64,000 nucleotides of DNA from the NCBI GenBank assembly GCA_000091205.1, contig AP006498.2. One strand, 5' to 3'. The DNA comes from Cyanidioschyzon merolae. Lineage: Eukaryota. Positions 14,427 through 62,925 of the stretch are shown piece after piece. The notes beneath the pieces were generated by a model. It made no database searches, was not told the DNA's origin, and saw nothing but the letters and a program-made list of their open reading frames with translations. A program made the translations under genes and the position numbers. Each line of letters starts with the position of its first letter. Positions within the stretch are counted from its first letter, which is position 1.

Positions 14427-16412
14427 CTAGTCGACTTCTTCGACAGTTGGGCCGCTGCCAGTGCCAGCGCCGCCAGCACCAGGCATGCCGCCAGCTCCAG
14501 GCATGCCGCCAGCTCCAGGCATACCACCGGCACCTGGCATGCCATCTGCAGCGCCGCCAGCTTGCTGGTACATGCGAGTGAAGATGGGCATGGTAACGCT
14601 TTCCAGCTCTTTCTGCATGTTCTTGATCTGATCGAGCGAAGCAGTGGCGCCGTTTTCTTCGAGCCATTCCAGCACTTCTTTGGTCTTGTCAAGAATCTTC
14701 TGCTTGTCGCCGGCGCTGAGGCTCTGAGCTACCTGTTCCTCTTCCACGGTGCGCTTCGCCGAATAGGCCAGCTGCTCGAGCGAGTTGCGCGCCTCGACCG
14801 TGCGTCGGACTTCTTCATCCTTCGCCTTCATGGCCTCTGCCTCCTTCACCATGCGCTCAACCTCCGCCTCGCTCAGCCGACCCTTTTCATTCTTAATCGC
14901 AATCCGTTCACTCTTACCGGTAGTCTTGTCAACTGCTGTAACATTCAGGATGCCGTTCGCATCGAGGTCAAATGTGACCTCAATCTGAGGCACACCCCGT
15001 GGTGCCGGCGGAATACCTGTCAAGGTGAACTGTCCCAACAGGTGGTTGTCCTTGGTCATAGCGCGCTCGCCTTCATAAACTTGAATCGTGACAGCAGGCT
15101 GATTGTCGGCATAGGTTGTGAAGATCTGGCTCTTCTTTGTCGGGATTGTGCTGTTCCGCGGAATCAAAACAGTCATGACACCTCCGGCGGTCTCAATACC
15201 GAGCGAGAGAGGCGTCACGTCGAGCAACAGAATGTCCTTGGTCGTTTCAGACTCATGGCCCGACAAGATTGCAGCCTGGACGGCTGCTCCGTACGCCACC
15301 GCCTCATCCGGATTGATTGACTTGCAGAGCTCCTTGCCATTGAAGAACTGGCTAAGAAGTTGCTGAATCTTTGGAATGCGTGTCGAGCCGCCGACGAGAA
15401 CGACGTCGTCAACTTGGCTCTTCGACAAATTCGCGTCCTTCAGGACCCTCTCAACAGGATCGAGGGTGCTGCGGAACAAATCTCCGCAGAGCTCCTCGAA
15501 CTTGGCTCGAGTGATTGAGCTGTAAAAGTCAATGCCGTTGTAAAGGGAATCTATCTCAATCGTCGCTTGCGTCGCCGACGACAGCGTCCGTTTCGCCCGT
15601 TCGCACGCCGTCCGCAATCGCCGCATGGCTCGATTGTTCCCAGTAATGTCTTCCTTGTACTTGCGCTTGAACTCCTTCACGAAATAATCCACCATTCGCG
15701 AATCAAAGTCCTCGCCACCCAGATGAGAATTGCCAGAGACTGCGCGCACCTCGAAGATGCCCGAATCGACGCTCAGCAAGCTCACATCGAATGTTCCACC
15801 ACCAAGGTCGTAAATCAGCACATTGCGCTCCTTGTTATCACTCGTCTTCTTATCAATACCATACGCGATTGCGGCTGCCGTCGGCTCGTTGATGATGCGA
15901 AGGACGTTCAGACCGGCGATCGTACCAGCATCCTTTGTCGCCTGGCGCTGGGAATCATTGAAATATGCCGGCACTGTGATAACAGCATCAGTAACCTTCG
16001 TTCCCAGGTATGACTCCGCAATATCCTTCATTTTCGTCAACACCATGGCACTGATCTCCTCCGGGGAGAACCGTTTCACGTCGCCATGTGCGACAACCTG
16101 GATGAGCGGCTTGTCACCCGGGCCTTGAACGACCTTGAATGGCCAGTGCTTCATATCCTCCTGCACGGTAGGATCAGAGAACTTACGTCCAATGAGACGT
16201 TTCGCGTCAAAGACAGTATTCTCGGGGTTCAGCGCTACCTGGTTCTTCGCGGCGTCTCCGATGAGGCGCTCCGTCTCCGTGAAGGCAACATATGACGGGG
16301 TCGTCCGGTTGCCCTGCTCGTTCGCAATAATCTCAACCTTGTTGCCTTCCATAACGGCAACGCACGAGTAGGTCGTGCCAAGGTCAATTCCGATCGCCTT
16401 TGCCTTTGACAT
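14427..16412 (-). CDS. HSP70: Cytosolic heat-shock protein 70 (HSP70/DnaK family).
   Basis: It contains [22 protein letters not shown] and [14 protein letters not shown] signatures, four C-terminal GMPGAG repeats and a terminal EEVD. The start is an ATG and the gene is a single 661-aa exon. Confidence 0.95.
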
Positions 16413-16675
16413 TGTTCAAAGCTCGTTAACAGGAACTATTCCACGAACACGAGTTAAACGTCCAGTCTGAACACTCTGTCTCACTTGCTCCGCAACAAGA
16501 ACAATATGCTCCCGTACCGGAACTCGCTCCTCTGACACACGTGTTCTAGCGAACGGCGCGTGTTTGACTATGAACACCAATGACTCTTAAGTAGACGCCC
16601 ATTGTATGAATGGGGCCGCGACACGATCGCTAGCGACGCGTCGATCGGCGCGCCGCAGCGATCGTGCGCCGACGG

Positions 16676-16696
16676 TTCGCGAAGGATTCGGAAGCT
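16676..16696. promoter_or_regulatory. Candidate heat-shock-element-like sequence upstream of HSP70.
   Basis: The sequence ttcgcGAAggaTTCggAAGc has alternating GAA/TTC units about 265-285 bp upstream of the HSP70 ATG. One spacer is 3 nt rather than the canonical 2 nt, so the match is imperfect. It coincides with the terminus of Fanzor copy A. Confidence 0.2.
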
Positions 16697-16699
16697 TTG

Positions 16700-16940
16700 C
16701 CGCGAAAAACGCCAGCGGCGTACAGTAGTGGCAGCGACCGCGCCTTAGACAAATCGTTCTCAGCTGACGTGCAGACGCCTCCCAGCCTTTCTCGACCGGC
16801 CACCTACTACTGCTTCCAACTTCTTCTCATATAGTTCGACTTTGAGGGGTTGTCCAACAAAGTTCTCTCTTGTCTATTCTGGAGATCTGTTCTCCAGCAC
16901 CGCACATCTCCGTATATTGCTAGGGGCATGAAAGTCACGA
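16700..16940 (-). ncRNA. Candidate guide-RNA (fRNA/omega-RNA) scaffold at the 3' end of Fanzor copy A.
   Basis: A roughly 230-nt stretch runs from the RuvC-III codons through the stop codon to the element terminus. It is conserved at nucleotide level in copies A, B, C and D, including past the stop where nothing is coding. It contains complementary segments (cagtagtaggtggc ... gccactactg). This placement matches where TnpB and Fanzor guide RNAs are encoded. No RNA evidence is available from sequence alone. Confidence 0.35.
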
Positions 16941-18274
16941 TTCACACACTCCATACGGTTCTTGCCATCATTGGTTGTACTTACTAACGCAGGCAATCCT
17001 CGAACGTTCGCCCTCCTTTCCATTTGCTCCTCTGTTAGCGGTCCGTACTTTGCGATTTCCTCAGGGCACCGCTGGCACTTGTCTATCTCGACCGTCTGAA
17101 GTGTACAACCCAGCTCGTGGTGTGTATAGGACGTTCGGAACTCATCTACAGGTATCGTGACGAGACGCCTTCCACACTCCTTGTACGTTCTTGTTGTTGG
17201 AGCTGGTATGCACCCCTTTTGGGTCTTCCATCGCCCTGCTCCATACGCTACGACGAGCCTTTGACTCTGGTCCCCGTTGAGCGCACGCAACTGATTGAAA
17301 AAGTTGGCAAACGCCCGCTGCCTCCCACAGTGTAGATTCATACGCAGACGGGCCCACCGAGGCTTTGTATATTCCTTCCACAGCGCATCCCAATGGGCAA
17401 CACGAACTTCCATGAATTTCCGAAAAGCTCGAAAGTCCGCTCCTCGGCTCGTCACCTCGCTCATAGCTTCCAGGTGCTCTTTCATTCCTGAATTCCACGT
17501 TTCGATTTTCTTCGTCGCATTTATGACACCGGATTCTCGATAGAATCTCGCTCTCGAGAACGTCAACAGACGGATGTCTTTCTGACGTAAGTTGCCGTAA
17601 GTACCATCTTCCGCCCGCTTCGGTGCTGCGATGGTTATGGTATTTGTGCTTCCGGGGTCCGTGCCAACGACAAAGTCGATATCCTGCACTTTCTGCTTCT
17701 CAGAACCCGCCTTCTTGTTCTCTTCATTCTTTACCGCGCCAACGACAAGGTCGTTATGCTCCACCTCCTGCATCGCAGGATCCGCCGTCTTCTTATCTTC
17801 ATCCTTCGTCACGTCAACGACAAGGTCGTTATCCTCCACCTCCTGAATCGCACGTTCCTCCTCTTTGTTTTCTTCATCCCTCGTCACGGGCGAAGTCAAA
17901 GGCGGAACTGGCCGATCTGTCTTCAACCGCCGATCGTGTACACAAAAGGCTACCCCATCGGTTTCGATCTTCCCAGTGAATACATTTTGCTTGCTCACTT
18001 TGGGACGCTTGGAATCGGAGATACGCTTCCAGTGGGTCTCCCGGTTTTCGCCGGTGAAATCCTTCCTGCTAACACTGAACTTCGGTCCGATCTCCCTCAT
18101 GATGCCGTAAAGGACGCCGGAGTCGATACTCACGAAGTATGACTTGATATTGGACAATGGAACCACGCCGGAGCGCTTCCCCACTAGGACAGCCTTCCGT
18201 CTCTCCCACTCTTCATTTGTCTCTTCACTCAGCTTCATCTCCGCCTTGCGTTCGAGCTCTCGGTCCAGAAACAC
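16874..18274 (-). CDS. Fanzor/TnpB-like RuvC nuclease, RuvC-containing C-terminal portion of copy A.
   Basis: Motifs: RuvC-I-like [17 protein letters not shown]; RuvC-II-like [22 protein letters not shown]; a zinc-finger remnant KCQRCPEE; RuvC-III-like [16 protein letters not shown] (canonical NRDFNAAINIRR in sister copies). Upstream of RuvC-I there are about 25-aa acidic repeats ([25 protein letters not shown]). Confidence 0.8.
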
Positions 18275-18308
18275 AAAGTACCGTAGGACGAGGCGATAGT
18301 ATCGTTCC

Positions 18309-18947
18309 TTATCTTTTTTTCAACTCTGATATCTTTTCTGTTTGATTCGCCAACCCCAGTACCGCACGGTGCTCTTGTACAGTCGCCCGGATCACAGAAG
18401 CTTCATTCGCGCTCTCGTTTGACGCCTTCTTCTCGACAAATTCGACCTCATCTTCATGCTGTCGATCTTTCGTGATGCCATTGATAGTCGCCCATTTTCC
18501 TTTGCGAGAGATGCCCGGGCGGAGTGCAACCGCGGCGCGGATCACGAAACGTTCGAGGTTCGTTGTCAAACGGCTCGTCAGGTTCGTGAGGTACTTCATC
18601 GCCCCGTGGTCGTAAATATCCGCGCCACCCCTGTATCGGGTACGCTCGAAGCGGAATGCCGCGAAGTTTTCGTGGAGGGCATGCACTAGCACATTTTCCC
18701 TCCACGTTCCTGCTGTACAAAGCATCAGGTAGAGAAAAATCGTCTTGTCGAAAACCTCGTCCGGAATCTCGACCGATTCCATGTGCGTCACGTCGAGATA
18801 CATCTCCCTCGCCAGATGCATCAGTCCTGACGAAGCCTTTATAATACTCATGGAGTACGACTCAACACGGTTTCTAGTTGCCTCCCGTAACTTCTCCACC
18901 CACGCATTCTTGATATGTTTAAGAAGACAGGCTTTCACCACCGTCAC
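18309..18947 (-). CDS. N-terminal portion of the same Fanzor gene (copy A). It is out of frame with the downstream part because of a +1 shift in an A7 tract.
   Basis: In copy C the homologous sequence is one continuous frame (ORF 60843..61577 spans both parts), so the break in A and B is a +1 indel in a poly-A tract. The listed start is a GTG and there is no in-frame ATG. An NLS-like basic segment (RKKNKKQ...RKRQRRRRGR) lies in another frame further upstream. The true N-terminus is unresolved and could reflect an intron, a frameshift or a sequencing error. Confidence 0.55.
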   Translation of the reverse strand: MTVVKACLLKHIKNAWVEKLREATRNRVESYSMSIIKASSGLMHLAREMYLDVTHMESVEIPDEVFDKTIFLYLMLCTAGTWRENVLVHALHENFAAFRFERTRYRGGADIYDHGAMKYLTNLTSRLTTNLERFVIRAAVALRPGISRKGKWATINGITKDRQHEDEVEFVEKKASNESANEASVIRATVQEHRAVLGLANQTEKISELKKR

Positions 18948-19266
18948 GTAGGACTCTTGTTTTTCGTGCAGCTTCTGACGTGGGCTCTCCCTCTTCTGCG
19001 TCTTTGTCTTTTCCTGTTACTCTCCGCCGGGCACTGTTTTTTGTTTTTTTTTCTGGCAGCCGGCGACACCTGCCTTCCAGGATCCTCCACTTGCTTTTCC
19101 AGAAATTTCCTTTTTTTCGAAAAAGAACGCGCTTTGAACGCTTCTGTTATAAACTGCGAAGAATCAACCGAATACACTCATTTGAGCGTTGAAACACGAC
19201 TGAGATGAAGTAATATATTTCGCTACGATTCCAATGCAAATACATGTTTTACGTTAAAACAACAAG

Positions 19267-19955
19267 TCAACGAATGGTCAGGATCGCGTTTCCCTTCAAC
19301 GGCGAGATGCGCGTCGTACCTCATGCCTGCCGGTTATGGAGGTGCGCATCTCGACCGCACTATATGCAGCAAAGAACAGGACTAGCTACTGACTAGCAAT
19401 GAGATGACCATTTCTTTCCCACTCTACAGTAAACGTTAAAAGGGCAAATGTTGCCATATCGTCGGAAGCTTACCTTCCAGGCGAAAGGTCCAGCGAGCCG
19501 GACGAGTCTCCGGGGGTTCGTGCTTCATGGCTTCCCCTTCGCCACCCCAGTGCCAGGTGCTTTAGTGATATCTGACCAACTCATCCCCGAAGCGGTTTAT
19601 TCCGGCATTAAGGGTGCTCAGGCAGCGTCTGGGCGTCGCCCTGGTCGCAGCGCATTCGGTGGTACGCCTACGCTGTTCTGTCCCTGTGCAGCATCCGCTC
19701 CAGCGGTACAAGCGCTGCGGCGGGTGCTCACCGCAGGCTCGGCGCACGAAAGAACGCACAAATCGACCAATCTAGCGGAAAGGGAGTCTAAGTAATGGAA
19801 CCTGGAGGCAGGGTGCACCATGATGGGCGCTTTCCCGAAAGCCGATATCCATCCCGCAATCCGTGATCCACGGTCAACGAATAGGTTTTCTCAGACCAGA
19901 AAAAGAACAAGACACGACGCACATCTCGCCGTTGAAGGGAAACGCGATCCTGATC
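19267..19955. repeat. MITE-like segment bounded by a 41-bp inverted-repeat pair. It encloses an R3 copy.
   Basis: ggtcaggatcgcgtttcccttcaacggcgagatgcgcgtcg at 19267-19307 is reverse-complemented at 19915-19955. The same pair occurs in the duplicate at 32415 and 33060. A single arm is present at 60089-60131 beside copy C. Confidence 0.45.
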
Positions 19956-20079
19956 ATGAACGTGTCGCTCTAACGGACAAGACGTGTTAGGGTTGAAGGG
20001 GCAGCAAGGTCTAGTCTTTCAATGCATTCGTGTTCCACTAGCCTCGTAGAGTATTCAAGTGGTTTTTCGCGGTTAACAG

Positions 20080-20583
20080 CAGATGCGTTCCAAGTGCGTT
20101 CGTTCTCAAAAAAAATAGAATGCAATGGTATGGACGTGAAAGTCGAGGATACCGGAGGACCGTCATTGCCGAGTTCGACAAGCAAAATGAGGAAATCCTC
20201 TTCCCGCCGACCACCTATCCAAGAAGAACAACGGGTGACGACAACGAAGACGATGACGATGACGACGATGCGATATAGGCGAGAAAAGGTGTTTGCTCAC
20301 CGGTACGTTTACGAAACTGTGGTGGCACAGAGAGCACGAGTTCGAGGCGTCTTCGCAAAGCGAGGTTCCACCATCGGCCATAAATGCAAGGAGTTCGTCG
20401 ACCGAGACCCCAACGTCGCCATCATGATCAGATAATATGCAGAGCGAAAGACTTTACCCGAGGAACTGACGCGATCTGACTTGCGGGGCAGTCTCTCAGG
20501 GTCTCCGTACACAACCAGAAGCTGAAGCCGACAGCAGGGCCCGGTCCAGCACGGCAGGGAGGCGTCTGCGGGTAGATATCCAT
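20080..20583 (+). mobile_element. Short non-autonomous Fanzor-derived element (family 2, F2a, about 500 bp).
   Basis: It has a Fanzor-type 5' terminus (gcgttccaagtgcgttcgttctcaaaaaaaata...gtcgaggataccggaggacc) joined to the 3' region, which encodes a RuvC-III remnant (KEFVDRDPNVAIMI) and a conserved tail ending gggtagatatccatg. The internal coding region is deleted. Confidence 0.6.
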
Positions 20584-22577
20584 GTATACGACATGGTCGT
20601 GGGACGTTTTTGTTCCACTGACAGGTGCGTTCGAGTTACATAGAACTGAACAGATCCACGGACAAAGACGTATGCACTAATATTTCGGCTTCTTTAAACG
20701 ACGCTGGTCTCTCCTTTCTCTCCGGCGCTGTTCATAGCAGTCGCACGATATTGGCGGTGGTGGTGTTCAGGCCCCGATTCCATAGCTGCCGACTCTTGTC
20801 TAGGCATTCCATGCACTGCCAAAAGTTGCCATCTTCGCTTCGCTTGCCATGTGCACCTTCTCTCCACTCTGTTGCGGTGCGCCCGTCGCAGCGTTGCCGC
20901 TTGGCTGTGGTCTGGCGGTCACATGCCACCAGCATACTTCGTCATCTGACGGCTAGTCGCTGACACGTGAACGCTCGCGTCGACGCTCCGTAACTGTGTG
21001 TGGCGGGTCCAGAAGCCTCACCTCAGTGCCCTGCTCCGTTCTCGCACCAGCTGCCGTAACCTACGCTCACGGGCTTCTGCTGGGCGATCGCCTCGGCGAG
21101 AGCGCTCCCCGCAGCACACGCCTGCGCATGCTGCTCCCTTCTCTAGACGACTCGTCGAAGGCGATGCTCTCCAGACAGGAACAGGTACCGCAACGAACCT
21201 CCCAGGCCGGCGTGCACGTCGTGAACTCTCGATCTGTCTTCGCTCGCTTCGCGCAAAGCAGTGACGCACACTCTACTCAAAGTCATCGCAGCGATGAGTA
21301 AAGCCCGGGTCCAAGACCCCTTTCCATGCGCAGAAAAGAGACGGGCGCCTCTGAGCGCATGTTCCGGGAACTGCACCATACTGCCAATGAGTGCCGCTCC
21401 GTCGATAGCCCCACATAGAGGTGGCATTGCCTCTCAAGCGAAACTGCCTGTTTGCAGTGATAAGCTGCGTGACGTTTCAGCGAGAGTCTGTGAACGAGTC
21501 GTCACGGCCTCAACCCAGGTATTTTTCGTCGTTCATCCAGCGACGTGAAGTGCTGCACCCGAGTGTCGCCTTGAAACAGAGGCATCGAACCTTGGCGCAT
21601 GCGAGTGATTCGTGCACGCTACACTTAGGAATATGAGAAGCGCAGAGGCTTGTACACATGTCGTGGAAGAAGATGCCTTTTATGTGATGAATCCTTGCTC
21701 GTGGGTGCCGCGCATCATTCAAATGACGGTGACGTGACGAATGCGAGCGGCAGAGGGTCTACAAAGCAACTCCGGATGTGCGACCCTGATTCCTACAGCT
21801 ACTTCCCAGTCCATGAGCCCGCACTGTTGCACTTTGCATCTACAGGCTGGAGATCTAAAACAATTGCGGAAAAATCTCAAGCCAGGAACTGCGCGAGCAG
21901 CTCAGTTCTCCACTTTAATCTGACTTAAGAATAGGATGCCATGGGTGCCTACAACTGGGACTCCGCGCGAACACGCTGCAGAAGCGTTGTTGCAGCCTCT
22001 GGACTGCAGGGAGCGCCACGCGGCGAACCAGGCCCTTTCCGCATACGACAACCCGACTCGCCAGGCTGTGACCTGGCCATACCTCAGATGGTGCTTCAGC
22101 GAACCTTGGTTCCGGACGGCCGACTTCATACGCTGGACATAGGAGCATTGCGTACTCTTTTGATCCTTCGAGAAAACATGTAATCGTTATGTGGGAACGA
22201 GCAACGCCCCTCACGGAGCATGCCACATTCGTTCTCCTGTTGCTCAACTGCCCCCCAGCCGCGGTGTCTGACGAGACGTTTGCTCTCGGGGACACCCGAC
22301 AAGTTAAATACGAACGGATTCGGGCATCCCAGGCCCGCTGATGCTATTCGAGAAGGCATACGCCTGTCGTAAATGAAACGCAATGTGTACCTCTATGGCG
22401 CACCCTCTGACGAGCAGATGCCAACACACGCGCGCTCGAAGACTGCTCCCGAAAGAAGGCCTTCCAGGACACGTAAGAGCTCTTCAATAGCATAGTGCTT
22501 GCAGCTGGTTCTGCTCAGTCCGCTCAGAGCGACGCTAGACCTCACACTGATTCCGTAGGAGCTTGCAACACAGTGCA

Positions 22578-29212: not shown

Positions 29213-29793
29213 TCCTTTGACGCGATTCTTCTCGATATAATTGAAGCGTTGTCCAGTAACCTGAAAGATCGGGCGCTGCCAGAAAACTCGTCCGCAACAA
29301 GGCACGAAATGCACGCCCTGTCGAAGCGCAACAGCACACCGGTACAGTGTTAGCGGCCTTTCACCGCAGAAACTCGCACTGATGGTGCTTTACGGAAGCT
29401 TCTCTTCGTCGCGCCTTGAGCTCTGTTCCCGGTCGAAGCGAGGCTCCCCGGGTCTGCAAAGCTCTAATAAAGCCACGTGGGCAAAGAGTCGTGCACTGCA
29501 GCAGCTGCAGCACGAACCAGATATGCTGCACCCGTTCAGAGCAAGTGCAGTGCCTCGTCTCTACTGCCGATAACGGATCCGGAGACCGACGACGGTAGAG
29601 AAACCAAACGCCTTCACAGAGTCGAACGATGCCGACTGTGTACAGTAGTGGCGGTGAACGCGCCCTAGACTTAAAGTCGCCAATTGACGTGCAGACGCCT
29701 CCCAGCCTTTCTCGACCGGCCACCTACTACTGCTTCCAACTTCTTCTCATATAGTTCGACTTTGAGAGGTTGTCCAACAAAGTTCTCTCTTGT

Positions 29794-31419
29794 CTATTCT
29801 GGAGATCTGTTCTCCAGCACCGCACATCTCCGTATATTGCTAGGGGCATGAAAGTCACGATTCACAAACTCCATACGGTTCTTGCCATCATTGGTTGTAC
29901 TTACTAACGCAGGCAATCCTCGAACGTTCGCCCTCCTTTCCATTTGCTCCTCTGTTAGCGGTCCGTACTTTGCGATTTCCTCAGGGCACCGCTGGCACTT
30001 TTCCATCTCGACCGTCTGAAGTGTACAACCCAGCTCGTGGTGTGTATAGGACGTTCGGAACTCATCTACAGATATCGTGACGAGACGCCTTCCACACTCC
30101 TTGTACGTTCGTGTTGTTGGAGCTGGTATGCACCCCTTTTGGGTCTTCCATCGCCCTGCTCCATACGCTACGACGAGCCTTTGAGTCTGGTCCCCGTTGA
30201 GCGCACGCAACTGATTGAAAAAGTTGGCAAACGCCCGCTGCCTCCCACAGTGTAGATTCATACGCAGACGGGCCCACCGAGGCTTTGTATATTCCTTCCA
30301 CAGCGCATCCCAATGGGCAACACGAACTTCCATGAATTTCCGAAAAGCTCGAAAGTCCGCTCCTCGGCTCGTCACCTCGCTCATAGCTTCCAGGTGCTCT
30401 TTCATTCCTGAATTCCACGTTTCGATTTTCTTCGTCGCATTTATGACACCGGATTCTCGATAGAATCTCGCTCTCGAGAACGTCAACAGACGGATGTCTT
30501 TCTGACGTAAGTTGCCGTAAGTACCATCTTCCGCCCGCTTCGGTGCTGCGATGGTTATGGTATTTGTGCTTCCGGGGTCCGTGCCAACGACAAAGTCGAT
30601 ATCCTGCACTTTCTGCTTCTCAGAACCCGCCTTCTTGTTCTCTTCATTCTTTACCGCGCCAACGACAAGGTCGTTATGCTCCACCTCCTGCATCGCAGGA
30701 TCCGCCGCCTTCTTATCTTCATCCTTCGTCACGTCAACGACAAGGTCGTTATGCTCCACCTCCTGCATCGCAGGATCCGCCTTCTTCTCATTTTCATCCT
30801 TCGTTACGCCAACGACAAGGTCGTTATGCTCCACCTCCTGCATCGCAGGATCCGCCGCCTTCTTATCTTCATCCTTCGTTACGCCAACGACAAGGTCGTT
30901 ATGCTCCACCTCCTGCATCGCAGGATCCGCCGTCTTCTTATCTTCATCCTTCGTCACGTCAACGACAAGGTCGTTATCCTCCACCTCCTGAATCGCACGT
31001 TCCTCCTCTTTGTTTTCTTCATCCCTCGTCACGGGCGAAGTCAAAGGCGGAACTGGCCGATCTGTCTTCAACCGCCGATCGTGTACACAAAAGGCTACCC
31101 CATCGGTTTCGATCTTCCCAGTGAATACATTTTGCTTGCTCACTTTGGGACGCTTGGAATCGGAGATACGCTTCCAGTGGGTCTCCCGGTTTTCGCCGGT
31201 GAAATCCTTCCTGCTAACACTGAACTTCGGTCCGATCTCCCTCATGATGCCGTAAAGGACGCCGGAGTCGATACTCACGAAGTATGACTTGATATTGGAC
31301 AATGGAACCACGCCGGAGCGCTTCCCCACTAGGACAGCCTTCCGTCTCTCCCACTCTTCATTTGTCTCTTCACTCAGCTTCATCTCCGCCTTGCGTTCGA
31401 GCTCTCGGTCCAGAAACAC
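29794..31419 (-). CDS. Fanzor/TnpB-like RuvC nuclease, C-terminal portion of copy B (541 aa with the expanded acidic repeat).
   Basis: It has the same RuvC-I, RuvC-II, zinc-finger and RuvC-III motifs as copy A, and five to six copies of [25 protein letters not shown]. Confidence 0.8.
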
Positions 31420-31453
31420 AAAGTACCGTAGGACGAGGCGATAGTATCGTTCC

Positions 31454-32092
31454 TTATCTTTTTTTCAACTCTGATATCTTTTCTGTTTGATTCGCCAACC
31501 CCAGTACCGCACGGTACTCTTGTACAGCCGCACGGATCACAGAAGCTTCATTCGCGCTCTCGTTTGACGCCTTCTTCTCGACAAATTCGGCCTCATCTTC
31601 ATGCTGTCGATCTTTCGTGATGCCATTGATAGTCGCCCATTTTCCTTTGCGAGAGATGCCCGGGCGGAGTGCAACCGCGGCGCGGATCACGAAACGTTCG
31701 AGGTTCGTTGTCAAACGGCTCGTCAGGTTCGTGAGGTACTTCATCGCCCCATAGTCGTAAATATCCGCGCCACCCCTGTATCGGGTACCCTCGAAGCGGA
31801 ATGCCGCGAAGTTTTCGTGGAGGGCATGCACTAGCACATTTTCCCTCCACGTTCCTGCTGTACAAAGCATCAGGTAGAGAAAAATCGTCTTGTCGAAAAC
31901 CTCGTCCGGAATCTCGACCGATTCCATGTGCGTCACGTCGAGATACATCTCCCTCGCCAGATGCATCAGTCCTGACGATGCCTTTATAATACTCATGGAG
32001 TACGACTCAACACGGTTTCTAGTTGCCTCCCGTAACTTCTCCACCCACGCATTCTTGATATGTTTAAGAAGACAGGCTTTCACCACCGTCAC
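31454..32092 (-). CDS. N-terminal portion of the Fanzor gene in copy B, with the same A7-tract +1 frameshift as copy A.
   Basis: It is near-identical to 18309..18947. Confidence 0.55.
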   Translation of the reverse strand: MTVVKACLLKHIKNAWVEKLREATRNRVESYSMSIIKASSGLMHLAREMYLDVTHMESVEIPDEVFDKTIFLYLMLCTAGTWRENVLVHALHENFAAFRFEGTRYRGGADIYDYGAMKYLTNLTSRLTTNLERFVIRAAVALRPGISRKGKWATINGITKDRQHEDEAEFVEKKASNESANEASVIRAAVQEYRAVLGLANQTEKISELKKR

Positions 32093-33224
32093 GTAGGACT
32101 CTTGTTTTTCGTGCAGCTTCTGACGTGGGCTCTCCCTCTTCTGCGTCTTTGTCTTTTCCTGTTACTCTCCGCCGGGCACTGTTTTTTGTTTTTTTTTCTG
32201 GCAGCCGGCGACACCTGCCTTCCAGGATCCTCCGCTTGCTTTTCCAGAAATTTCCTTTTTTCGAAAAAGAACACGCTTTGAACGCTTCTGTTATAAACTG
32301 CGAAAAATCAACCGAATACACTCATTTGAGCGTTGAAACACGACTGAGATGAAATAATATATTTCGCTACGATTCCAATGCAAATACACGTTTTACGTTA
32401 AAACAACAAGTCAACGAATGGTCAGGATTGCGTTTCCCTTCAACGGCGAGATGCGCGTCGTACCTCATGCCTGCCGGTAATGGAGGTGTGCATCTCGACC
32501 GCACTATATGCAGCAAAGAACAGGACTAGCTACTGACTAGCAATGAGATGACCATTTCTTTCCCACTCTACAGTAAACGTTAAAAGGGCAAATGTTGCCA
32601 GATCGTCGAAAGCTTACCTTCCAGGCGAAAGGTCCAGCGAGCCGGACGAGTCTCCGGGGGTTCGTGCTTCATGGCTTCCCCTTCGCCACCCCAGTGCCAG
32701 GTGCTCTAGTGATATCTGACCAACTCATCCCCGAAGCGGTTTATTCCGGCATTAAGGGTGCTCAGGCAGCGTCTGGGCGTCGCCCTGGTCGCAGCGCATT
32801 CGGTGGTACGCCTACGCTGTCCTGTCCCTGTGCAGCATCCGCTCCAGCGGTACAAGCGCTGCGGCGGGTGCTCACCGCAGGCTCGGCGCACGAAAGAACG
32901 CACAAATCGACCAGTCTAGCGGAAAGGGAGTCTAAGTAATGGAACCTGGAAGCAGGGTGCACCATGACGGGCGCTTTCCCGAAAGCCGATATCCATCCCG
33001 CAATCCGTGATCCACGGTCGATGGATAGGTTTTCTCAGACCAGAAAAAGAACAAGACACGACGCACATCTCGCCGTTGAAGGGAAACGCGATCCTGATCA
33101 TGAACGTGTCGCTCTAACGGACAAGACGTGTTAGGGTTGAAGTGGCAGCAAGGTCTAGTCTTTCAATGCATTCGTGTTCCACTAGCCTCGTAGAGTATTC
33201 AAGTGGTTTTTCGCGGTTAACAGC

Positions 33225-35724: not shown

Positions 35725-35726
35725 CA

Positions 35727-36500
35727 CCAACGCCGTTCGAAAGTCGAACGACGCCAACGGTGTACAATAGTGGCGAGTGACCCGCCCTAGAGGAGACGTC
35801 GCCAGTTGATGTGCGGACGCCATCCAATCTTTCTCGACCGGCCACGTACAACTGCTTCCAACTTTTTCTCATATAATTCCACGTTGGGAGGTTCTCCCAC
35901 AAAATTCTCTCTTGTCTACTTTGGAGGTCTATTCTCCAGCACCGCACATCTCCTTATATCGATAGCTGCGTTAAGGTCTCGGTTCACAAACTCGATACGT
36001 TTCTTGCCATCATTGGTTGTACTTACTAATGCAAGTAGCCGTCGAACTTTTGCCCTCCTTTCCATTTGCTCGTCTGTCAGCGGTCCGTACTTTTTTATAT
36101 CCTCAGGGCTCCACTGACACTTTTACATTTCCACTCTCTGAGGTGTGCATCCGAGTTCATGGTGTGTACACGATGTTCGGAACTCATCTACAGGTATCGT
36201 GACGAAACGCCTTGCGCACTCCTTTTACGTTCTTGTCGATGGAGCTGGTGTAGTCCCTTTTTGGGTCTTCCATCGGCCTGCTCCGTACGCTACTACGAGC
36301 CTCTGACTTTCATCCTCCTTCAGGGCACTCAGCTGATTGAAGAAGTTTGCGAACGCCCGCTGCCTCCCACCGTATAGATGCATACGCTGACGAGCCCACC
36401 GGGGCTTTGTATACCCTTTCTACAGCTCCTCGTTATGAGCAGCGCGAGTATTCATGAACTCCAGAAAAGCCTGAAAGTCCGCTCAACGGCTCGTCACGTT
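35727..36500 (-). mobile_element. Truncated family-1 Fanzor element (copy D), 3' part only. Its terminus abuts the cytochrome b5 start codon.
   Basis: It aligns with the 3' roughly 770 bp of copies A and B, covering the tail, the stop and the RuvC-III/zinc-finger region. It ends in gccactattgtaca followed by cgttggcgtcgttcgactttcgaacggcg. Similarity to A and B stops near 36500. Confidence 0.65.
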
Positions 36501-36539
36501 ACCGATAGATGAGTAACGAACGACTTTCGTCCACCATGA

Positions 36540-59394: not shown

Positions 59395-60240
59395 TGATTT
59401 TTTCGATGACAAAACGTTTACATTGACCTTGCATCCCGGATTGCAGGATAGATAATGGTAATCAAAGAAGTGTCCAACATGATGCACCTTACCTCCAAGT
59501 TCCATGACTTATTCTCGGATGTATTGGTCGTTTCGTATGTTCTATCGTGCGCCAGGTACCTGCTTTGAGCACCCGCCTTGGTACCTAAACTGCTGTTACG
59601 GATGCTGCACGTAAACAGAGCGGCTTTGCCATACCACTGAGCGCTTCGGCTGGAGGAATGCTTCACCTAACATGGAGTCGGGATCCATTATAATCCTGGG
59701 TGCCGGTAAGCTGTGCAGACAGACGTACTGTCTGCGGCAGCGCGAAGCGATGTACAAGGAGTCCACTGCGACCGGGGCGATCCCCAGACGCAGCGTACCC
59801 GCTCCTAGTCTTGGAATAAACTGCGTTTTGGACGAGCTGCTCAGGTCCATTCACAGCACTGGGCGCTGGAAAGAGCATGAATGACTGGTCTAGCAGACAC
59901 GTCCGGCTCGCGAGACCCTCCTCCTATAGGGTAAACTTTCGACAGTGTGGAAAGCGTGTCCGCCTTTTAACGTTTATCGTAGATGGGGAAAGTAATCATT
60001 TTATTGTCGCTACTTAGTGGCTTCTTTCTGTTCTTCGTTCTGAATAGAGCGCTCGATGCGCGAACCTCCATACCTGGCAGGAACTGAACATGTCGCGTAT
60101 CTCGCAGATGGAGGGAAACGCGATCCTGACCGCTCCTTGCCCTATTTCTCTAAAGGGCGAGTTGTATTCTCGTTAACTTCATAGCCAAGTATAGTTTTCA
60201 ATTCGATTGCTTTTCAACCCTCAAGTAAAAATATTCGATT
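59395..60240 (+). repeat. R3 repeat copy immediately upstream of Fanzor copy C.
   Basis: It aligns with 570-1250 and, in reverse complement, with 19250-19880. It contains one arm of the 41-bp inverted repeat at 60089-60131. Confidence 0.5.
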
Positions 60241-60249
60241 GACTTTTCG

Positions 60250-62690
60250 CAGTATATAACAGAAGCGTTCAAAGAGCGTTCTTTTTCAAAAAAAATAAAA
60301 ATGAAAAGTTATGAGAAAGCAAGTCGACGATCCTGGAGGCCCAGTGTCGCTGGGTGCCAGACAAAAAAACGAAAAACTGTGCCTAGTCCAGAGGAACAGG
60401 AAAAGGCAAAGAAGCAAGGGCAGGAAGACCGACGTCAGTGGCTGCAAGAAAGACGACAGTACGACGAGACGGTGGGGAAAGCCTGTTTTCTTAAACATAT
60501 CAAGGATCCGCATAGAGAAAAATCGCGAGAGGTCATTAGGAACCGTGTCGATTCGTACTCCAGGAGGAGTATAAAGTCGTCCTCAGGACTAATGCATCTG
60601 GTGAAGGGGATGTACGAAGACGTGATGGACATGGAAACAGTCGAGGTTCCGGAAGAATTCTTCGACAAGACCTATATTCGTCACCTGATGCTTGGTAGAG
60701 CGGAAGCGCAGAGGGAAAAAGAGCGGATACACGTCCTCACGAAAACCATCCTTTTTACAGCTTCGAGGGTGCTCGAAACAAGGGTGACCGGGATATTCAC
60801 GACAATGGGGCGATGAAGTAGATCACGAACCTGAAGAACCATTTGACAGTGAACCTCGAACGTTTCATGAAACGCACCGTGTTTGCACTCTACTCGGGCC
60901 TATCTCGCAATGGAAAATGGGCGATTATCAATGGCATCACGAAAGATCGCAAGCGTGAAGATGAAGTCGAATTCGTCGACAAGAAGGCATCAAACGAGAG
61001 CACGAATGAAGCTTCTGTAATCCGTGCGGCTATAGAAGAGCATCGTGCAGTCCTGGAGCTGGCGAATCCAACAGACAAGATATCAGAGTTGAAAGAAGCT
61101 AAGGAAAGATACTATCGCCTCGTCCTGCGCTATTTCGTGTTTCTGGACCAAGAACTCGAACGCAAGGCAGAGGTGAAGCAGCGTGAGGAAAGCAATGAAG
61201 AGTGGGAGAGACGGAAGGCTTTCCTACTGGGGAAGCGCCTCAACGTGGTTCCAATGTGCAACATCAAGTCACATTTTGTGACTATCCACTCCAGAATCCT
61301 TCACGGCATCATGGAGGAGATTAGTCCGGAGTTCGATGTTAGCAGGGAGGAATTCTCCGGTGAAAACCGGGAGACGTACTGGAAGAATATCTTCGATTTC
61401 AAACATCTCAAAGTGAGCAAGCAAAAGGTATTCAATGGGATGATCGAAACCGATGGGGTAGCCTTGTGTGTACACTATCGGCGGTTGAAAAGAGATCGTC
61501 CAGTTCCACCCTCGGCTTCGCCCGTGACGAAGGATGAAGAAAAGAAGGAGGCGGATCCTGCGACGCAGGAGGTATAGGATAAAGACCTTGTCGTTGACGT
61601 GACGAAGGATGAAGAAAGGGAGGAGGCGGATCCTGCGACACAGGAGGTGGAGGATAACGACCTTGTCGTTGACGCGGTGAAGCATGAAGATGAGAAGGAG
61701 GCGGATCCTGTGATGCAGGAGGTAGATGGGAACGACTTTGTCGTTCGTGCTGACCCCGGAAACACAAATATCGTAATCATCGCAGTATCCAAGCGTGCGG
61801 AAGACGGTACCGACGGTAATTTTCGTCAGAGACATGCGTCTTTTGAGGTTCTCGAAAATGATATATTATCGAGAATCCGGCACAATGAATGCAAGGAAGA
61901 AAATTGAGACATGGAATGCAGGAATGAAGGATCACCTGGAAACTTTGAGCGAGGTGACTAGCCGAGAGGCGGACTTTCAAACTTTTCTGAAATTCATGGA
62001 AGTTCGCGTTGCTCATTGGGATGCGCTGTGGAATGAGTATGCAAAGCCCCGGTGGGCTCGTCTGCGTATGAATTTGTATTTTGGGAAGCAGCGTGCATTC
62101 GCGAACTTTTTCAATGAGCTGAGCACCTTCAAAGAAGATGAAAGTCAGAGGCTCGTAGTGGCGTACGGAGCAGGGCGCTGCGCGCCCAAAAAAGTATATA
62201 CACCAGCTCCAACGACAAGAACGTACAAGGAGAGCGCAAAGCGTTTCTTTACGATACCAATAAGATGAGTTCCGAACATCGTATACACACCATGAACTGG
62301 GGTGTACATTTCAAAGGGTCGAGATGGAAAAGTGCCAGCGGAGCCCTGAGAATATAAAAAAGTACGGAGCGCTGACAGATGAGCAAATGGAAAGGAGAGC
62401 GGAAGTTCGGGACTACTTGCATTCGTAAGTACAATCAATGGCAAGAAACGTATGGAATTTTTGATCCGGGACTTTAACGCCACAATCAATATAACAACAT
62501 GTGCGGTGATGGAGAATAGACCACCAGAGCGAACACGAGAGAACTTTGTTGGACAACCTTTCAAAATGAAACTATATGAGAAAAAGTTGAAACCAGTAGT
62601 AGGTGGCCGGTCGAGAAAGACTCGATGGTGTTTGAACGTCAGTTGGAGACTTCTTGACTAGGGCGGGTTTCTCGCCACTACTGTACACCG
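60250..62690 (+). mobile_element. Fanzor/TnpB-like element, family-1 copy C. It is diverged and degenerate, and lies co-oriented with and immediately upstream of the RNase III-like gene.
   Basis: Its 5' terminus (cagtatataacagaagcgttcaaagagcgttctttttcaaaaaaaata) and 3' tail (...ctagggcgggtttctcgccactactgtaca) match copies A and B. It is about 70-75% similar to A and B by eye. Confidence 0.75.
60301..62661 (+). pseudogene. Fanzor/TnpB-like ORF of copy C, disrupted by in-frame stops and frameshifts.
   Basis: The ORF fragments 60301..60816, 60843..61577, 61599..61907, 61795..62268 and 62452..62661 are collinear with the A and B protein. In-frame stops are present, for example TAG where A has TAC-CTC and TAG where A has GAG. 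The RuvC-III region is kept (IRDFNATINITTCAV). The N-terminal segment and the RuvC-I segment are in one frame here, unlike in A and B. Confidence 0.75.
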
Positions 62691-62925
62691 CTGGCGTCGT
62701 TCGACTTTCGAACGGCGTTTTGCGATGGTTTGATCGTTGCAACGCTCCAGGAGCAAACAAGGCTTGGAAACGTGCACGCTTTTCATGGAAAGAGCGCAGC
62801 GCTGCTTGCAGAGAGAGCCTTTGATGCGGTAGAGGTGCTTGGTGCTCGTCGCTGAGAGTCCGCGAAGCAACTGCACCAAAACTGGCGACGGCAAGGTTTT
62901 ATCTATGTGCATGGTAGTCGCGAAA

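What the first reader, a model, noticed from the sequence alone, without database searches (positions are those of the whole stretch)
16700..19180. Multi-copy Fanzor/TnpB-like RuvC nuclease gene family, a candidate eukaryotic RNA-guided endonuclease system
Four related copies (A at 16.7-19.2 kb, B at 29.6-32.3 kb, C at 60.25-62.69 kb and truncated D at 35.73-36.5 kb) encode a protein with the TnpB/Cas12 catalytic triad layout.

The motifs are Ruv[10 protein letters not shown], Ruv[18 protein letters not shown] followed by a CxxC zinc finger (KCQRCPEE), and RuvC-III VNRDF(H/N)A(P/A)(S/I)NIRR. In fragment copies the last motif is the textbook NRDFNAAINIRR.

This is the signature of Fanzor, the eukaryotic descendant of the IS200/IS605 TnpB OMEGA nuclease. 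The elements lack terminal inverted repeats and have conserved asymmetric ends, which is consistent with that ancestry.

No companion transposase is present in the window. Nuclease activity, the guide RNA and the target-motif requirement of this family cannot be read from sequence.
Basis: partly seen in the sequence, partly recalled or inferred. Interest (0 to 1): 0.85.

Follow-up and report, generated by a model that had tools for sequence, protein, structure and literature searches.

The report
Decayed Fanzor1 transposon copies (CMe-1A)
The four repeats are broken copies of a Fanzor1 (eukaryotic TnpB-like, RNA-guided nuclease) mobile element of the red alga Cyanidioschyzon merolae; the family was described in 2007 and named CMe-1A in 2013, so the reading is right but not new.

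Summary
Four related copies exist: A 16703-19360(-), B 29607-32503(-), C 60046-62719(+), and 5'-truncated D 35729-36497(-). All the quoted motifs are present.

So the Fanzor interpretation holds, with three corrections:
- The glutamate in VDEFRTS is the relocated Fanzor-type glutamate; the canonical RuvC-II position is an invariant Gly.
- The "CxxC zinc finger" is not conserved.
- None of the four copies is intact. They carry start-codon loss, frameshifts and nonsense codons.

The family is already published: Nozaki 2007 (253 copies, 3.2 kb) and Bao & Jurka 2013 (Fanzor1 CMe-1A, with TE-N2_CMe at the 5' end). The guide RNA, TAM and mode of spread remain untested. Side observations are short "ghost" derivatives, variable 5' modules, terminal hairpins, and a recent recombinational replacement of copy B by copy A.

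The parts
16703..19360 (-). Copy A, core element (defective Fanzor1 gene plus 5' and 3' non-coding ends)
   Evidence: Aligns over its full length with copy C at 79.5%. ORF pieces are 16874-18274 (466 aa) and 18309-18947 (212 aa). Lesions seen.
17642..17665 (-). RuvC-I motif GTDPGSTN (catalytic Asp) in copy A; the same motif in B is at 30562-30585 and in C at 61746-61769
   Evidence: The column is invariant D in 61 relatives and aligns with SpuFz1 D383.
17231..17248 (-). AYGAGR: the canonical RuvC-II strand, with Gly in place of the TnpB glutamate
   Evidence: G623 is invariant in A4. The interpretation follows Jiang et al. 2023.
17129..17149 (-). VDEFRTS: the relocated (Fanzor-type) catalytic Glu in copy A; B at 30049-30069, D at 36171-36191
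   Evidence: E656 is invariant and aligns with SpuFz1 E541.
16925..16945 (-). RuvC-III motif VNRDFHA in copy A; B at 29845-29865, C at 62461-62481, D at 35967-35987
   Evidence: D725 is present in 60 of 61 relatives and aligns with SpuFz1 D606.
17060..17080 (-). KCQRCPE, the claimed CxxC; not a conserved zinc finger
   Evidence: It lies in a CMe-specific insertion. The second Cys is S, N or T in relatives, and there is no second Cys pair.
18314..18320 (-). A7 run carrying the +1 frameshift that splits the ORF of A (same in B at 31459-31465)
   Evidence: Copy C and relatives read through this position.
17663..17888 (-). 75-nt (25-aa, acidic) tandem repeat inside the ORF, 3.0 units in A; 6.0 units in B (30583-31033), 3.0 in C (61523-61745)
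   Evidence: TRF. The region is disordered in the model (residues 385-469, pLDDT below 50). It shows no codon periodicity.
29607..32503 (-). Copy B, a chimeric copy: its own 3' tail (29607 to about 29727) joined to a body copied from A
   Evidence: L010, from a close relative, has the same site and the same tail but a body only about 80% identical.
60046..62719 (+). Copy C, a full-length core with several frameshifts and stops
35729..36497 (-). Copy D, 5'-truncated (core positions about 1927 to the end), with stops; its 3' end lies about 7 nt upstream of the cytochrome b5 ATG
   Evidence: Cyt-b5 domain.
62693..62719 (+). 3'-terminal hairpin GGCGTCGTTCGA-CTT-TCGAACGGCGTT (12 bp counting G.U pairs); D at 35729-35755; diverged version in B at 29607-29633
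   Evidence: Conservation across 59 copies drops just after it. It is folded in both MFE predictions.
60046..60067 (+). 5'-terminal hairpin (consensus GCGCTC-GNT-GAGCGC) marking the left end of the core; A at 19340-19360, B at 32484-32503
   Evidence: This is the junction point with at least 5 different upstream modules in 49 copies. It is absent from the solo TE-N2-like copy.
59398..60045 (+). TE-N2_CMe-like 5' module attached to copy C; also 19392-19904 (-) at A, 32536-33048 (-) at B; a solo copy at 549-1173 (+)
   Evidence: It matches Bao & Jurka's description of the 5' 635 bp of CMe-1A.
19912..20621 (+). Short 'ghost' derivative of a related lineage (5' UTR-like part plus RuvC-III/3' part, about 70% identical); others at 33056-33766, 36487-36882, 43153-43673, 53523-54017 (all +)
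   Evidence: NCBIfam guided_TnpB gives a weak hit on the 36597-36938 ORF.

Best explanation
These are decayed copies of CMe-1A, the Fanzor1-carrying interspersed repeat of Cyanidioschyzon merolae. It has about 150-250 copies of roughly 3.2 kb and makes up about 5% of the genome.

Shown:
- An intact family member, such as the 752-aa P0001 from a hot-spring metagenome, has the fold of solved Fanzor1 nucleases.
- It has an N-terminal half and a split RuvC domain, separated by a disordered acidic repeat linker.
- The catalytic residues are D (DPG), a relocated E (DEFRTS) and D (NRD).
- The zinc ribbon is degenerate.

Inferred from SpuFz1, GtFz1, PpFz1 and other tested Fanzors:
- The protein binds an omega-RNA transcribed from the 3' end of its own element. 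That is the last ~250 nt, overlapping the end of the ORF and ending in a 12-bp hairpin.
- The omega-RNA continues into flanking DNA, which supplies the guide.
- The complex cuts double-stranded DNA next to a TAM. The DNA just 5' of the left-end hairpin (ATC/CAT/ATA-like) is the candidate TAM.

In this window the gene is dead in all four copies. At most they can supply RNA or act as recombination substrates. Copy B shows the latter: its body was recently overwritten by copy A together with 2.5 kb of A's flank.

How the family spreads without a transposase is not known.
For: Organism:
- Two window ORFs are exact matches to C. merolae 10D proteins on a 908,485-bp record.
- That is the length of chromosome 16 in PMC1955436.

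Family size:
- 38 close homologues were found.
- 1448 representatives have E<=1e-3.

Homology:
- Profile A4 against PDB sequences gives PpFz1 3.4e-20, SpuFz1 2.8e-12 and GtFz1 7.8e-5, with motif-to-motif alignment.
- D484 and E656 are invariant; D725 is present in 60 of 61.
- These columns map onto the Mg-coordinating residues D383, E541 and D606 of SpuFz1.

Structure:
- The AF2 model has pLDDT 81.7 and pTM 0.80.
- The Foldseek top 7 hits are all Fanzor1, E 1.5e-16 to 1.7e-13.

Selection:
- In the RuvC part, third codon positions vary 2.5 times more than first and second positions among 29 copies: 0.168 vs 0.075 and 0.060.

Published identity:
- Bao & Jurka 2013 describe CMe-1A: about 150 copies, about 80% identical to consensus, about 3 kb, no TIR, 5' 635 bp equal to TE-N2_CMe.
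- Nozaki 2007 describe 253 copies of 3.2 kb with a truncated ORF resembling WSSV WSV486, and report transcription.

Lesions in the window copies.

The A-to-B replacement.
Against: - No curated profile reaches threshold on the window proteins or on close relatives. Pfam Cas12f1-like_TNB gives only E 0.002-0.23; NCBIfam guided_TnpB gives 0.07.
- The C4 zinc finger that Bao & Jurka list as part of the Fanzor/TnpB signature is missing in this clade.
- No omega-RNA is demonstrated. RNAalifold on 40 3' ends shows almost no compensatory changes.
- Folding energies are not better than shuffles, with z of -0.5 and -1.7.
- The non-coding ends are no more conserved than third codon positions.
- Activity of this particular Fanzor has never been tested. 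Almost all copies are broken, here and in relatives.
Confidence: 0.93

Rival explanations
1. The window contains a working RNA-guided endonuclease system: at least one of the four copies still makes an active Fanzor and guide RNA.
For: A and B keep all three catalytic motifs in one 466/541-aa ORF. The family is transcribed according to Nozaki 2007. Bao & Jurka state that some CMe-1A copies elsewhere are intact.
Against: A and B lack the start codon and carry two frameshifts that cut off the N-terminal ~250 residues. That part covers residues 1-380, modelled with confidence. They also have a nonsense codon. C has several frameshifts and stops, and D is a 770-nt remnant. The genome sequence is finished, and the A7 shift is shared by A and B.
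Confidence: 0.04
2. On how the family spreads: CMe-1A copies are made through an RNA intermediate. The genome's non-LTR retrotransposon reverse transcriptase would act in trans and recognise the 3' hairpin, as with a SINE or HAL1-like passenger.
For: Many copies are 5'-truncated at different points but keep the exact 3' end: at least 10 truncation points in 71 loci, plus window copy D. A conserved terminal hairpin is followed by a variable, often simple-repeat-like GT-rich tail. There are no TIRs. Ghost derivatives keep only the 5' UTR and the 3' part. The elements are transcribed, and the genome has 26 non-LTR elements, 3 with intact RT. Jiang et al. report LINE associations for Fanzor1c.
Against: No target-site duplications were found around 20 copies, though this is a weak test at ~20% divergence. 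There is no poly(A). The left end is a fixed hairpin abutting repeated modules rather than random flanks. All functionally studied Fanzors sit in DNA transposons. I could not compare the tail with the C. merolae LINE tails.
Confidence: 0.2
3. On how the family spreads: copies are made at the DNA level without a transposase. Double-strand-break repair copies a donor element starting from its 3' side (homing or SDSA-like). The break may be made by Fanzor itself.
For: The 3' end is fixed, while the 5' end is either truncated or extended into repeated upstream modules. No TSDs or TIRs are seen. The 10-12 nt just beyond the hairpin are semi-conserved (TTGATGGTGCC-like), as expected if new sites resemble the donor's guide. 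There is a documented recent event in which element B was overwritten from within its 3' tail through the 5' end and 2.5 kb of donor flank. TnpB-driven homing is established in bacteria; this rests on my own knowledge of Meers et al. 2023, which I did not read here.
Against: This is purely inferential. The A-to-B event can be ordinary ectopic recombination between repeats. C. merolae 10D is haploid, so allelic homing needs a sexual cycle. No intact nuclease gene is in the window. The semi-conserved tail may simply be the degenerate end of the element.
Confidence: 0.12
4. It is a prokaryote-type TnpB (IS200/IS605 or IS607) or a Fanzor2 element, for example from recent horizontal transfer or contamination, rather than Fanzor1.
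For: Weak sub-threshold hits to Cas12f1-like_TNB and guided_TnpB. Terminal hairpins at both ends recall IS200/IS605 ends.
Confidence: 0.02

Closest known systems
Fanzor1 family CMe-1A of Cyanidioschyzon merolae (Bao & Jurka 2013, Mob DNA 4:12)
   Same: Same genome. About 3 kb, about 80% identity between copies, no TIRs and undetermined TSDs. The 5' ~635 bp equals TE-N2_CMe, which also occurs alone. It encodes a Fanzor1 protein.
   Different: Nothing essential; this is the same family. Added here: exact core ends with hairpins, the missing zinc finger, the ancestral C-terminal extension, ghost derivatives, and the A-to-B replacement.
'Novel interspersed repetitive element' of C. merolae (Nozaki et al. 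2007, BMC Biol 5:28)
   Same: 253 copies with a mean length of 3.2 kb on all chromosomes, about 5% of the genome. It has a truncated ORF weakly similar to WSSV WSV486 and is transcribed. WSSV is one of the Fanzor1-bearing viruses in Bao & Jurka's table.
   Different: The 2007 paper did not recognise the TnpB/RuvC relationship.
Parasitella parasitica Fanzor1 (PpFz1, PDB 9cf0-9cf3), Spizellomyces punctatus Fanzor1 (SpuFz1, 8gkh) and Guillardia theta Fanzor1 (GtFz1, 9cer)
   Same: Significant profile matches (3.4e-20, 2.8e-12, 7.8e-5) with the DPG, DE(F/Y)xTS and NRD motifs aligned. They are the best structural matches. They share the relocated RuvC-II glutamate.
   Different: Only 13-15% identity. 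These three have CxxC...CxxxxC zinc ribbons, and the CMe clade has none. CMe-1 has a variable acidic 25-aa repeat linker before RuvC-I and an insertion of about 20-30 residues after the Glu motif. Spu-1 has 30-nt inverted repeats; CMe-1A has none. Omega-RNA, TAM and cleavage are shown for those proteins and untested here.
ISDra2 TnpB / IS200-IS605 OMEGA system
   Different: The canonical RuvC-II Glu is replaced by Gly. There is no TnpA. The protein is twice as long. The host is eukaryotic. No sequence-level hit was found.
MCi-2 Fanzor1 elements of Mucor circinelloides (Bao & Jurka 2013)
   Same: Copies share the 3' region with the Fanzor gene but differ in their 5' regions, and no classification is possible. 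The CMe-1 relatives show at least 5 alternative 5' modules at one junction.
   Different: The species and sizes differ. MCi-2 copies are 99% identical, whereas CMe-1 copies are old.
'Ghost' Spu-1 elements (Saito et al. 2023) and solo fRNA copies in Chlamydomonas (Jiang et al. 2023)
   Same: Short derivatives that keep the element ends or the 3' RNA region but lack the nuclease ORF.
   Different: The window's ghosts belong to a lineage only about 70% identical to the long copies, and their last ~100 nt differ.

Membership tests
Fanzor1 | TnpB homologue encoded in a eukaryotic nuclear genome (or eukaryotic virus) | tested here: met
   Window ORFs are exact matches to C. merolae 10D proteins on the 908,485-bp chromosome 16. 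Neighbouring genes are ordinary eukaryotic genes.
Fanzor1 | Significant sequence homology to established Fanzor1 proteins | tested here: met
   Family profile A4 gives PpFz1 3.4e-20, SpuFz1 2.8e-12 and GtFz1 7.8e-5; no Fanzor2 or TnpB chain is hit. Single sequences and a narrow profile fail.
Fanzor1 | Fanzor1 fold (the solved structures are described as WED, REC and split RuvC with a TNB domain) | tested here: met
Fanzor1 | RuvC catalytic residues D...E...D at the positions of SpuFz1 D383/E541/D606 | tested here: met
   D484 and E656 are invariant and D725 is 60/61 in A4. They align with chain positions 777, 935 and 1000, which equal D383, E541 and D606. The residues are present in copies A and B.
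Fanzor1 | Rearranged RuvC-II: canonical Glu replaced by Pro/Gly, with an alternative Glu tens of residues downstream (Jiang et al. 2023) | tested here: met
   G623 is invariant in the VVAYG strand and E656 lies 33 residues later. The criterion comes from PMC10530073.
Fanzor1 | C4 zinc finger (OrfB_Zn_ribbon/TNB) between the Glu motif and RuvC-III (Bao & Jurka signature) | tested here: not met
   No conserved Cys pairs occur between E656 and R724 in 61 sequences. KCQRC is specific to A and B. Pfam Cas12f1-like_TNB is only sub-threshold. This is a degenerate feature of the clade. The homology evidence is not affected.
Fanzor1 | Omega-RNA/fRNA derived from the 3' end of the element, with the guide taken from the flank | tested here: inconclusive
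   A conserved 3' region and a terminal hairpin exist. There is no covariation support, no energy signal, no Rfam hit and no excess conservation. RNA data are needed.
Fanzor1 | TAM-dependent, RNA-guided dsDNA cleavage | not testable with these tools
   Only a candidate motif is available: ATC/CAT/ATA just 5' of the left-end hairpin.
Fanzor1 | Carried by a multi-copy transposable element | tested here: met
   Four copies plus five ghost derivatives lie in 64 kb. 71 loci were found in metagenomes. The literature reports 150-253 copies.
Fanzor1 | N-terminal nuclear localisation signal (frequent, not universal) | tested here: inconclusive
   Basic clusters are present: TKKRKT in copy C, ARKKRRT...KRHKRRR in P0038 and ARKKQKT in the consensus. 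No predictor was run.
TnpB of IS200/IS605 or IS607 (OMEGA) | Association with TnpA (Y1 HUH or serine recombinase) or prokaryotic IS ends; canonical RuvC-II Glu | tested here: not met
Fanzor2 | Close clustering with TnpB, short N-terminus, frequent IS607 context | tested here: not met
CRISPR-Cas12 | Adjacent CRISPR array | tested here: not met
   The only tandem repeats near the genes are the 75-nt coding repeats. Rfam finds no crRNA family.

The most novel reading that the evidence does not exclude
CMe-1 Fanzor elements may multiply without any transposase, by a copy process that starts at the fixed 3' hairpin end and runs a variable distance towards the 5' end. The process could be break-induced, homology-directed copying triggered by the element's own RNA-guided nuclease. 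It could instead be reverse transcription primed at the 3' hairpin. Either would explain the exact 3' ends, the many 5'-truncated copies and the alternative 5' modules picked up from donor flanks. It would also explain the absence of TIRs and TSDs, the semi-conserved 10-12 nt beyond the hairpin, and the observed overwriting of copy B by copy A plus its flank. C. merolae is reported to recombine efficiently (my own knowledge, not checked here). That would make it a tractable organism for asking what Fanzor does for its element.
Probability: 0.15. Interest if true: 0.7.

Novelty: already known. Interest (0 to 1): 0.2.

Why it matters
The finding shows that motif reading can correctly spot a Fanzor family where standard single-sequence profile searches fail. 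But the family itself was among those first described in the 2013 Fanzor paper, and the repeat was catalogued in the 2007 genome paper.

What is still open is of moderate interest:
- No one has tested this Fanzor, which comes from an alga of acidic hot springs (pH 1.5, 45 deg C) and has lost the zinc finger, for activity, guide RNA or TAM.
- The way transposase-less Fanzor1 elements spread, and what the nuclease does for them, is unknown.
- The copies and relatives gathered here (fixed 3' hairpin, variable 5' ends, a dated recombinational replacement) give concrete hypotheses to test in an organism reported to be genetically tractable.

Tried and rejected
Searches that found nothing useful:
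- Single-sequence searches of the 466-aa and 212-aa ORFs against Pfam, NCBIfam and PDB sequences gave no relevant hit. A narrow family profile (A1) against the PDB also failed. Only the profile of distant representatives worked.
- The precomputed Pfam tag PF26935 (DUF8286) is uninformative, is absent from the local Pfam copy and does not appear in the paper library.
It was repeated with P0001.

Guide RNA:
- RNAalifold on 40 non-redundant 3' ends showed almost no compensatory pairs.
- Fold-energy z-scores were -0.5 and -1.7.
- Rfam found only a tRNA.
- No claim about the omega-RNA structure is made.

Element ends and mobility:
- A TSD search around 20 copies found nothing of 8 nt or more. This is not decisive at ~20% divergence.
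- A Helitron reading was considered because of the hairpin near one end and the one-ended variability. It was rejected as a classification because the ends lack TC...CTRR. No RepHel-like ORF was seen in the window either.
- A Replitron reading was rejected. No Replitrons were found in red algae, and no terminal direct repeats are present.
- The head-to-head truncated pairs (L042, L043 and the window's D|ghost pair) were tested as single-event palindromes. Their arms are only 70-82% identical, so this is undecided.


Full report
**What is there**

The repeat search, a four-way alignment and BLAST confirm four related copies.
- Core coordinates are A 16703-19360 (-), B 29607-32503 (-) and C 60046-62719 (+).
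- D, 35729-36497 (-), is a 5'-truncated remnant.
- C is about 80% identical to A and B.
- A and B are 98.7% identical over 5.1 kb (16780-21906 vs 29700-35051). That stretch includes DNA outside the element, so they are one insertion lineage plus a later duplication or conversion.

All quoted motifs are present at the stated places. None of the copies is intact.
- A and B have CTG in place of the family's ATG and an A9-for-A7 shift near the N-terminus.
- A and B also have a +1 shift in the A7 run at 18314-18320 / 31459-31465, and a TAG after ...ENRSPE.
- C has several frameshifts and stops.
- D is truncated and has stops.

**Where the window comes from**

Two ORFs (39195-41531 and 47839-50316) are exact matches to Cyanidioschyzon merolae 10D proteins on a record of 908,485 bp. 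That is the length of chromosome 16 in the finished genome (PMC1955436). The surrounding genes are ordinary, largely intron-less eukaryotic genes: HSP70, cytochrome c1, cytochrome b5, an MgtE domain, SUV3 helicase domains and others.

**Is it a Fanzor/TnpB nuclease?**

- The 466-aa and 212-aa ORFs give no Pfam, NCBIfam or PDB sequence hit.
- A profile of the 38 close homologues, all from JGI metagenomes and at least 52% identical, gives none either.

A search of 1.84 billion representatives with the family profile found 1448 relatives (696 at E<=1e-10), many of 600-700 aa. An alignment of P0001 (752 aa, the best-preserved close relative) with 60 of them, at 23-39% identity, has these features:
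- invariant D484 (DPG);
- invariant G623 (VVAYG);
- invariant E656 (VDEFRT);
- D725 in 60 of 61 sequences (NRDxNAAxNI).

This profile hits only Fanzor1 among all PDB sequences: Parasitella PpFz1 at 3.4e-20, Spizellomyces SpuFz1 at 2.8e-12 and Guillardia GtFz1 at 7.8e-5. Counting along the printed alignment, the three family columns fall on chain positions 777, 935 and 1000 of the MBP fusion. These are SpuFz1 D383, E541 and D606, the residues that coordinate the two Mg ions in the cryo-EM structure (PMC10432273).

An AlphaFold2 model of P0001 built on this alignment is confident, with pLDDT 81.7 and pTM 0.80. It is disordered only in the acidic repeat linker, residues 385-469.
- Foldseek against the PDB returns seven Fanzor1 chains first (E 1.5e-16 to 1.7e-13, TM up to 0.73). 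Cas12 and TnpB follow far behind.

The Fanzor1 assignment is therefore secure.

**Corrections to the motif reading**

1. The Glu of VDEFRTS is not the canonical TnpB/Cas12 RuvC-II glutamate. Jiang et al. 2023 showed that Fanzors have Pro or Gly at the canonical position and use a glutamate about 45 residues downstream. Here the canonical strand is VVAYG with an invariant Gly, and E656 lies 33 residues later.
2. KCQRCPEE is not a zinc finger.
   - The second Cys exists only in A and B; relatives have CQRS, CQRN or CQRT.
   - The segment lies in a CMe-specific insertion of about 20-30 residues.
   - The whole 61-member clade lacks conserved Cys pairs between the Glu motif and RuvC-III.
   - PpFz1, SpuFz1 and GtFz1 all have such pairs.
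3. The ancestral protein did not end at ...RPPE.
   - The next codon is unusually variable among 59 copies: TAG 19, TGG 10, TTG 7, CTG 6 and others.
   - The wider clade has Leu there (RPxxLxR).
   - The next ~40 codons stay open in most copies and show coding-like periodicity.
   - Part of the "conserved 3' tail" is therefore former coding sequence. Only about 55-60 nt are truly non-coding.

**Already known**

- Nozaki et al. [quoted passage not shown] It averages 3.2 kb, makes up about 5% of the genome, is transcribed, and has a truncated ORF weakly similar to WSSV WSV486.
- Bao & Jurka 2013, the paper that defined Fanzor, list one Fanzor1 family in C. merolae, CMe-1A. It has about 150 copies, about 80% identity to consensus and about 3 kb. 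It has no TIRs, its TSDs are undetermined and its class is unknown. Its 5' 635 bp is 95% identical to a separate repeat, TE-N2_CMe.
- The window reproduces this. A TE-N2-like module precedes A, B and C (19392-19904, 32536-33048, 59398-60045), and a solo copy lies at 549-1173. The solo copy stops just before the core's left-end hairpin.

**Anatomy added here**

I used 71 related loci from hot-spring metagenomes.

The core's right end:
- It is sharply defined by a hairpin, GGCGTCGTTCGA-CTT-TCGAACGGCGTT, which is 12 bp if G.U pairs are allowed.
- A sequence variant (AACGTTTTTC...GAAAGGCGTT) keeps the pairing.
- The hairpin is followed by 10-12 semi-conserved nucleotides (TTGATGGTGCC-like) and then unrelated DNA.

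The core's left end:
- It is another hairpin (GCGCTC-GNT-GAGCGC).
- Upstream of it, copies carry one of at least five different repeated modules or unique DNA.
- The junction usually reads ...CATC...AATC or ...ATAG immediately before the hairpin.

Other features:
- Many copies are 5'-truncated at different points while keeping the 3' end.
- I found no TSDs, though this is a weak test at this divergence.
- Third codon positions in the RuvC part vary 2.5 times more than first and second positions (0.168 vs 0.075 and 0.060). The nuclease domain was therefore under purifying selection while the family diversified.
- The non-coding ends vary about as much as third positions.
- Of 28 full-length metagenome copies checked, none has an ORF above 620 aa, and only two ORFs (505 and 294 aa) carry all three motifs. 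Only L001, which encodes P0001, reads through 752 aa.

**Guide RNA**

Nothing can be concluded.
- A consensus fold of 40 3' ends shows almost no compensatory changes.
- Folding energies are not unusual, with z of -0.5 and -1.7.
- Rfam finds only a tRNA in the window.

By analogy with tested Fanzors, the omega-RNA should come from the last few hundred nucleotides and read into the flank. That is inference only.

**Side findings**

Ghost derivatives:
- Five short elements lie at 19912-20621, 33056-33766, 36487-36882, 43153-43673 and 53523-54017.
- They keep a 5' UTR-like part and the RuvC-III/3' part of a related lineage at about 70% identity, with a different last ~100 nt.
- They resemble the "ghost" Spu-1 elements and the solo fRNA copies of Chlamydomonas.

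Replacement of copy B by copy A:
- Contig L010, from a very close relative, is 98-100% identical to the window in the host DNA next to copy B. It has an element at the same site with the same 3' tail.
- Its element body is only about 80% identical to B, whereas B's body is 97-100% identical to A.
- In strain 10D the body of B was therefore recently replaced by a copy of A together with 2.5 kb of A's upstream flank. One junction lies inside the 3' tail near 29700-29727.
- This fits ectopic homologous recombination or unequal exchange between copies.

**Mechanism and verdict**

Shown: these are Fanzor1 genes by sequence profile, by fold and by catalytic-residue alignment. They belong to the published CMe-1A family. 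The four copies here are pseudogenes.

Inferred: intact members act as omega-RNA-guided, TAM-dependent DNA endonucleases like SpuFz1, GtFz1 and PpFz1.

Unknown: how the family spreads. The pattern is a fixed 3' end, variable or truncated 5' ends, and no TIRs or TSDs. It fits copying that starts at the 3' end. That could be RNA-mediated: the genome has 26 non-LTR elements, 3 with intact RT. It could also be break-repair-mediated. I cannot decide between these.

It deserves low interest as a discovery, with modest residual interest in the untested biochemistry and mobility.

Noticed in passing
window 16780-21906 vs 29700-35051; locus L010 3600-7600: Copy B is chimeric. Its last ~100-140 nt and its downstream flank are orthologous to a close relative's element (L010; flank 98-100% identical). 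Its body, plus 2.5 kb beyond the 5' end, is a 98.7% copy of locus A. This looks like a recent ectopic recombination or conversion between two Fanzor copies with a junction inside the 3' tail. Upstream of the element, L010 is not collinear with the window.
   Followed up: yes
window 19912-20621, 33056-33766, 36487-36882, 43153-43673, 53523-54017 (all +): Short 'ghost' derivatives (400-710 bp) of a related Fanzor lineage. They keep a 5' UTR-like part and the RuvC-III-to-tail part (~70% identical to the long copies), but their final ~100 nt differ. The copy at 36597-36938 still reads FVNRDFNAAINIRR.
   Followed up: partly
loci L002-L072, 5' junctions; window 19340-19360, 32484-32503, 60046-60067: The left end of the core is always the hairpin GCGCTC-GNT-GAGCGC. 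Upstream of it, copies carry at least five different repeated modules or unique DNA. The modules are TE-N2-like, a GGACACGTGTCC-containing type, an A-rich type, a TTTAAGATAGTTG type, and reverse TE-N2. The junction usually reads CATC, AATC or ATAG before the hairpin. This recalls the variable 5' regions of Mucor MCi-2 noted by Bao & Jurka.
   Followed up: partly
codon at window 16874-16876 (A), 29794-29796 (B) and the aligned codon in 59 copies: The codon right after ...RPPE is far more variable than its neighbours: TAG 19, TGG 10, TTG 7, CTG 6, TCG 4, CGG 3 and others. The flanking columns are about 90% conserved. TAG truncates the last ~40 codons in a third of the copies. The reason for the hypervariability is unexplained.
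   Followed up: partly
3' flanks of copies: window 62720-62735, 35714-35728; loci: The 10-12 nt after the terminal hairpin are semi-conserved and GT-rich (TTGATGGTGCC, TTGTTGGTGCG, GTGATGGTGTG and similar). Some copies instead have simple repeats such as (GGCGGT)n, (GCT)n or (GGTATC)n. This could be the degenerate true end of the element, a target preference, or a slippage tail.
   Followed up: partly
window 17663-17888, 30583-31033, 61523-61745: The 75-nt coding repeat (an acidic 25-aa unit ending in NDLVV, like the strand before the catalytic DPG) has 3 units in A but 6 in B, although A and B are otherwise 98.7% identical. The array therefore changed copy number very recently. It is disordered in the model and shows no codon periodicity.
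   Followed up: partly
window 16412-16703, 29314-29607, 35729-35823: Three of the four copies end just upstream of a host gene in the same orientation. A ends ~290 nt before the HSP70 ATG. B ends ~290 nt before the cytochrome c1 ORF. D ends ~7 nt before the likely cytochrome b5 ATG, and the longest cyt b5 ORF (35221-35823) actually starts inside D's tail. Read-through transcripts would enter these genes.
   Followed up: no
window 24386-24973; also 549-1173: A 99-nt tandem array (5.9 units, 90% matches) is about 72-75% similar, on the opposite strand, to the ~100 nt of the TE-N2-like module next to the core junction (59895-59995). A solo TE-N2-like copy lies at 549-1173.
   Followed up: no
loci L042 2784-5339; L043, L044, L056, L058, L060; window 36487-36497: Head-to-head pairs of 5'-truncated copies are joined within a few nucleotides at their truncated ends. 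In L042, core positions 1409 and 1355 lie 2 nt apart. The arms are only 70-82% identical, so a single-event origin is undecided.
   Followed up: partly
window 14349-15320 (+): An ORF antisense to HSP70 matches Pfam PF10712 (NAD-GH) at 3e-39. From my own knowledge, this Pfam family is suspected to be built from spurious ORFs antisense to HSP70, so it is probably not a real gene here.
   Followed up: no
window 12371-12795; 3921-4473; 38602-38685: Other repeats and RNA genes, seemingly unrelated to the finding: a 71-nt tandem repeat (6 units, 97%), a 75/229-nt tandem repeat (7.3 units), and one tRNA gene on the minus strand.
   Followed up: no
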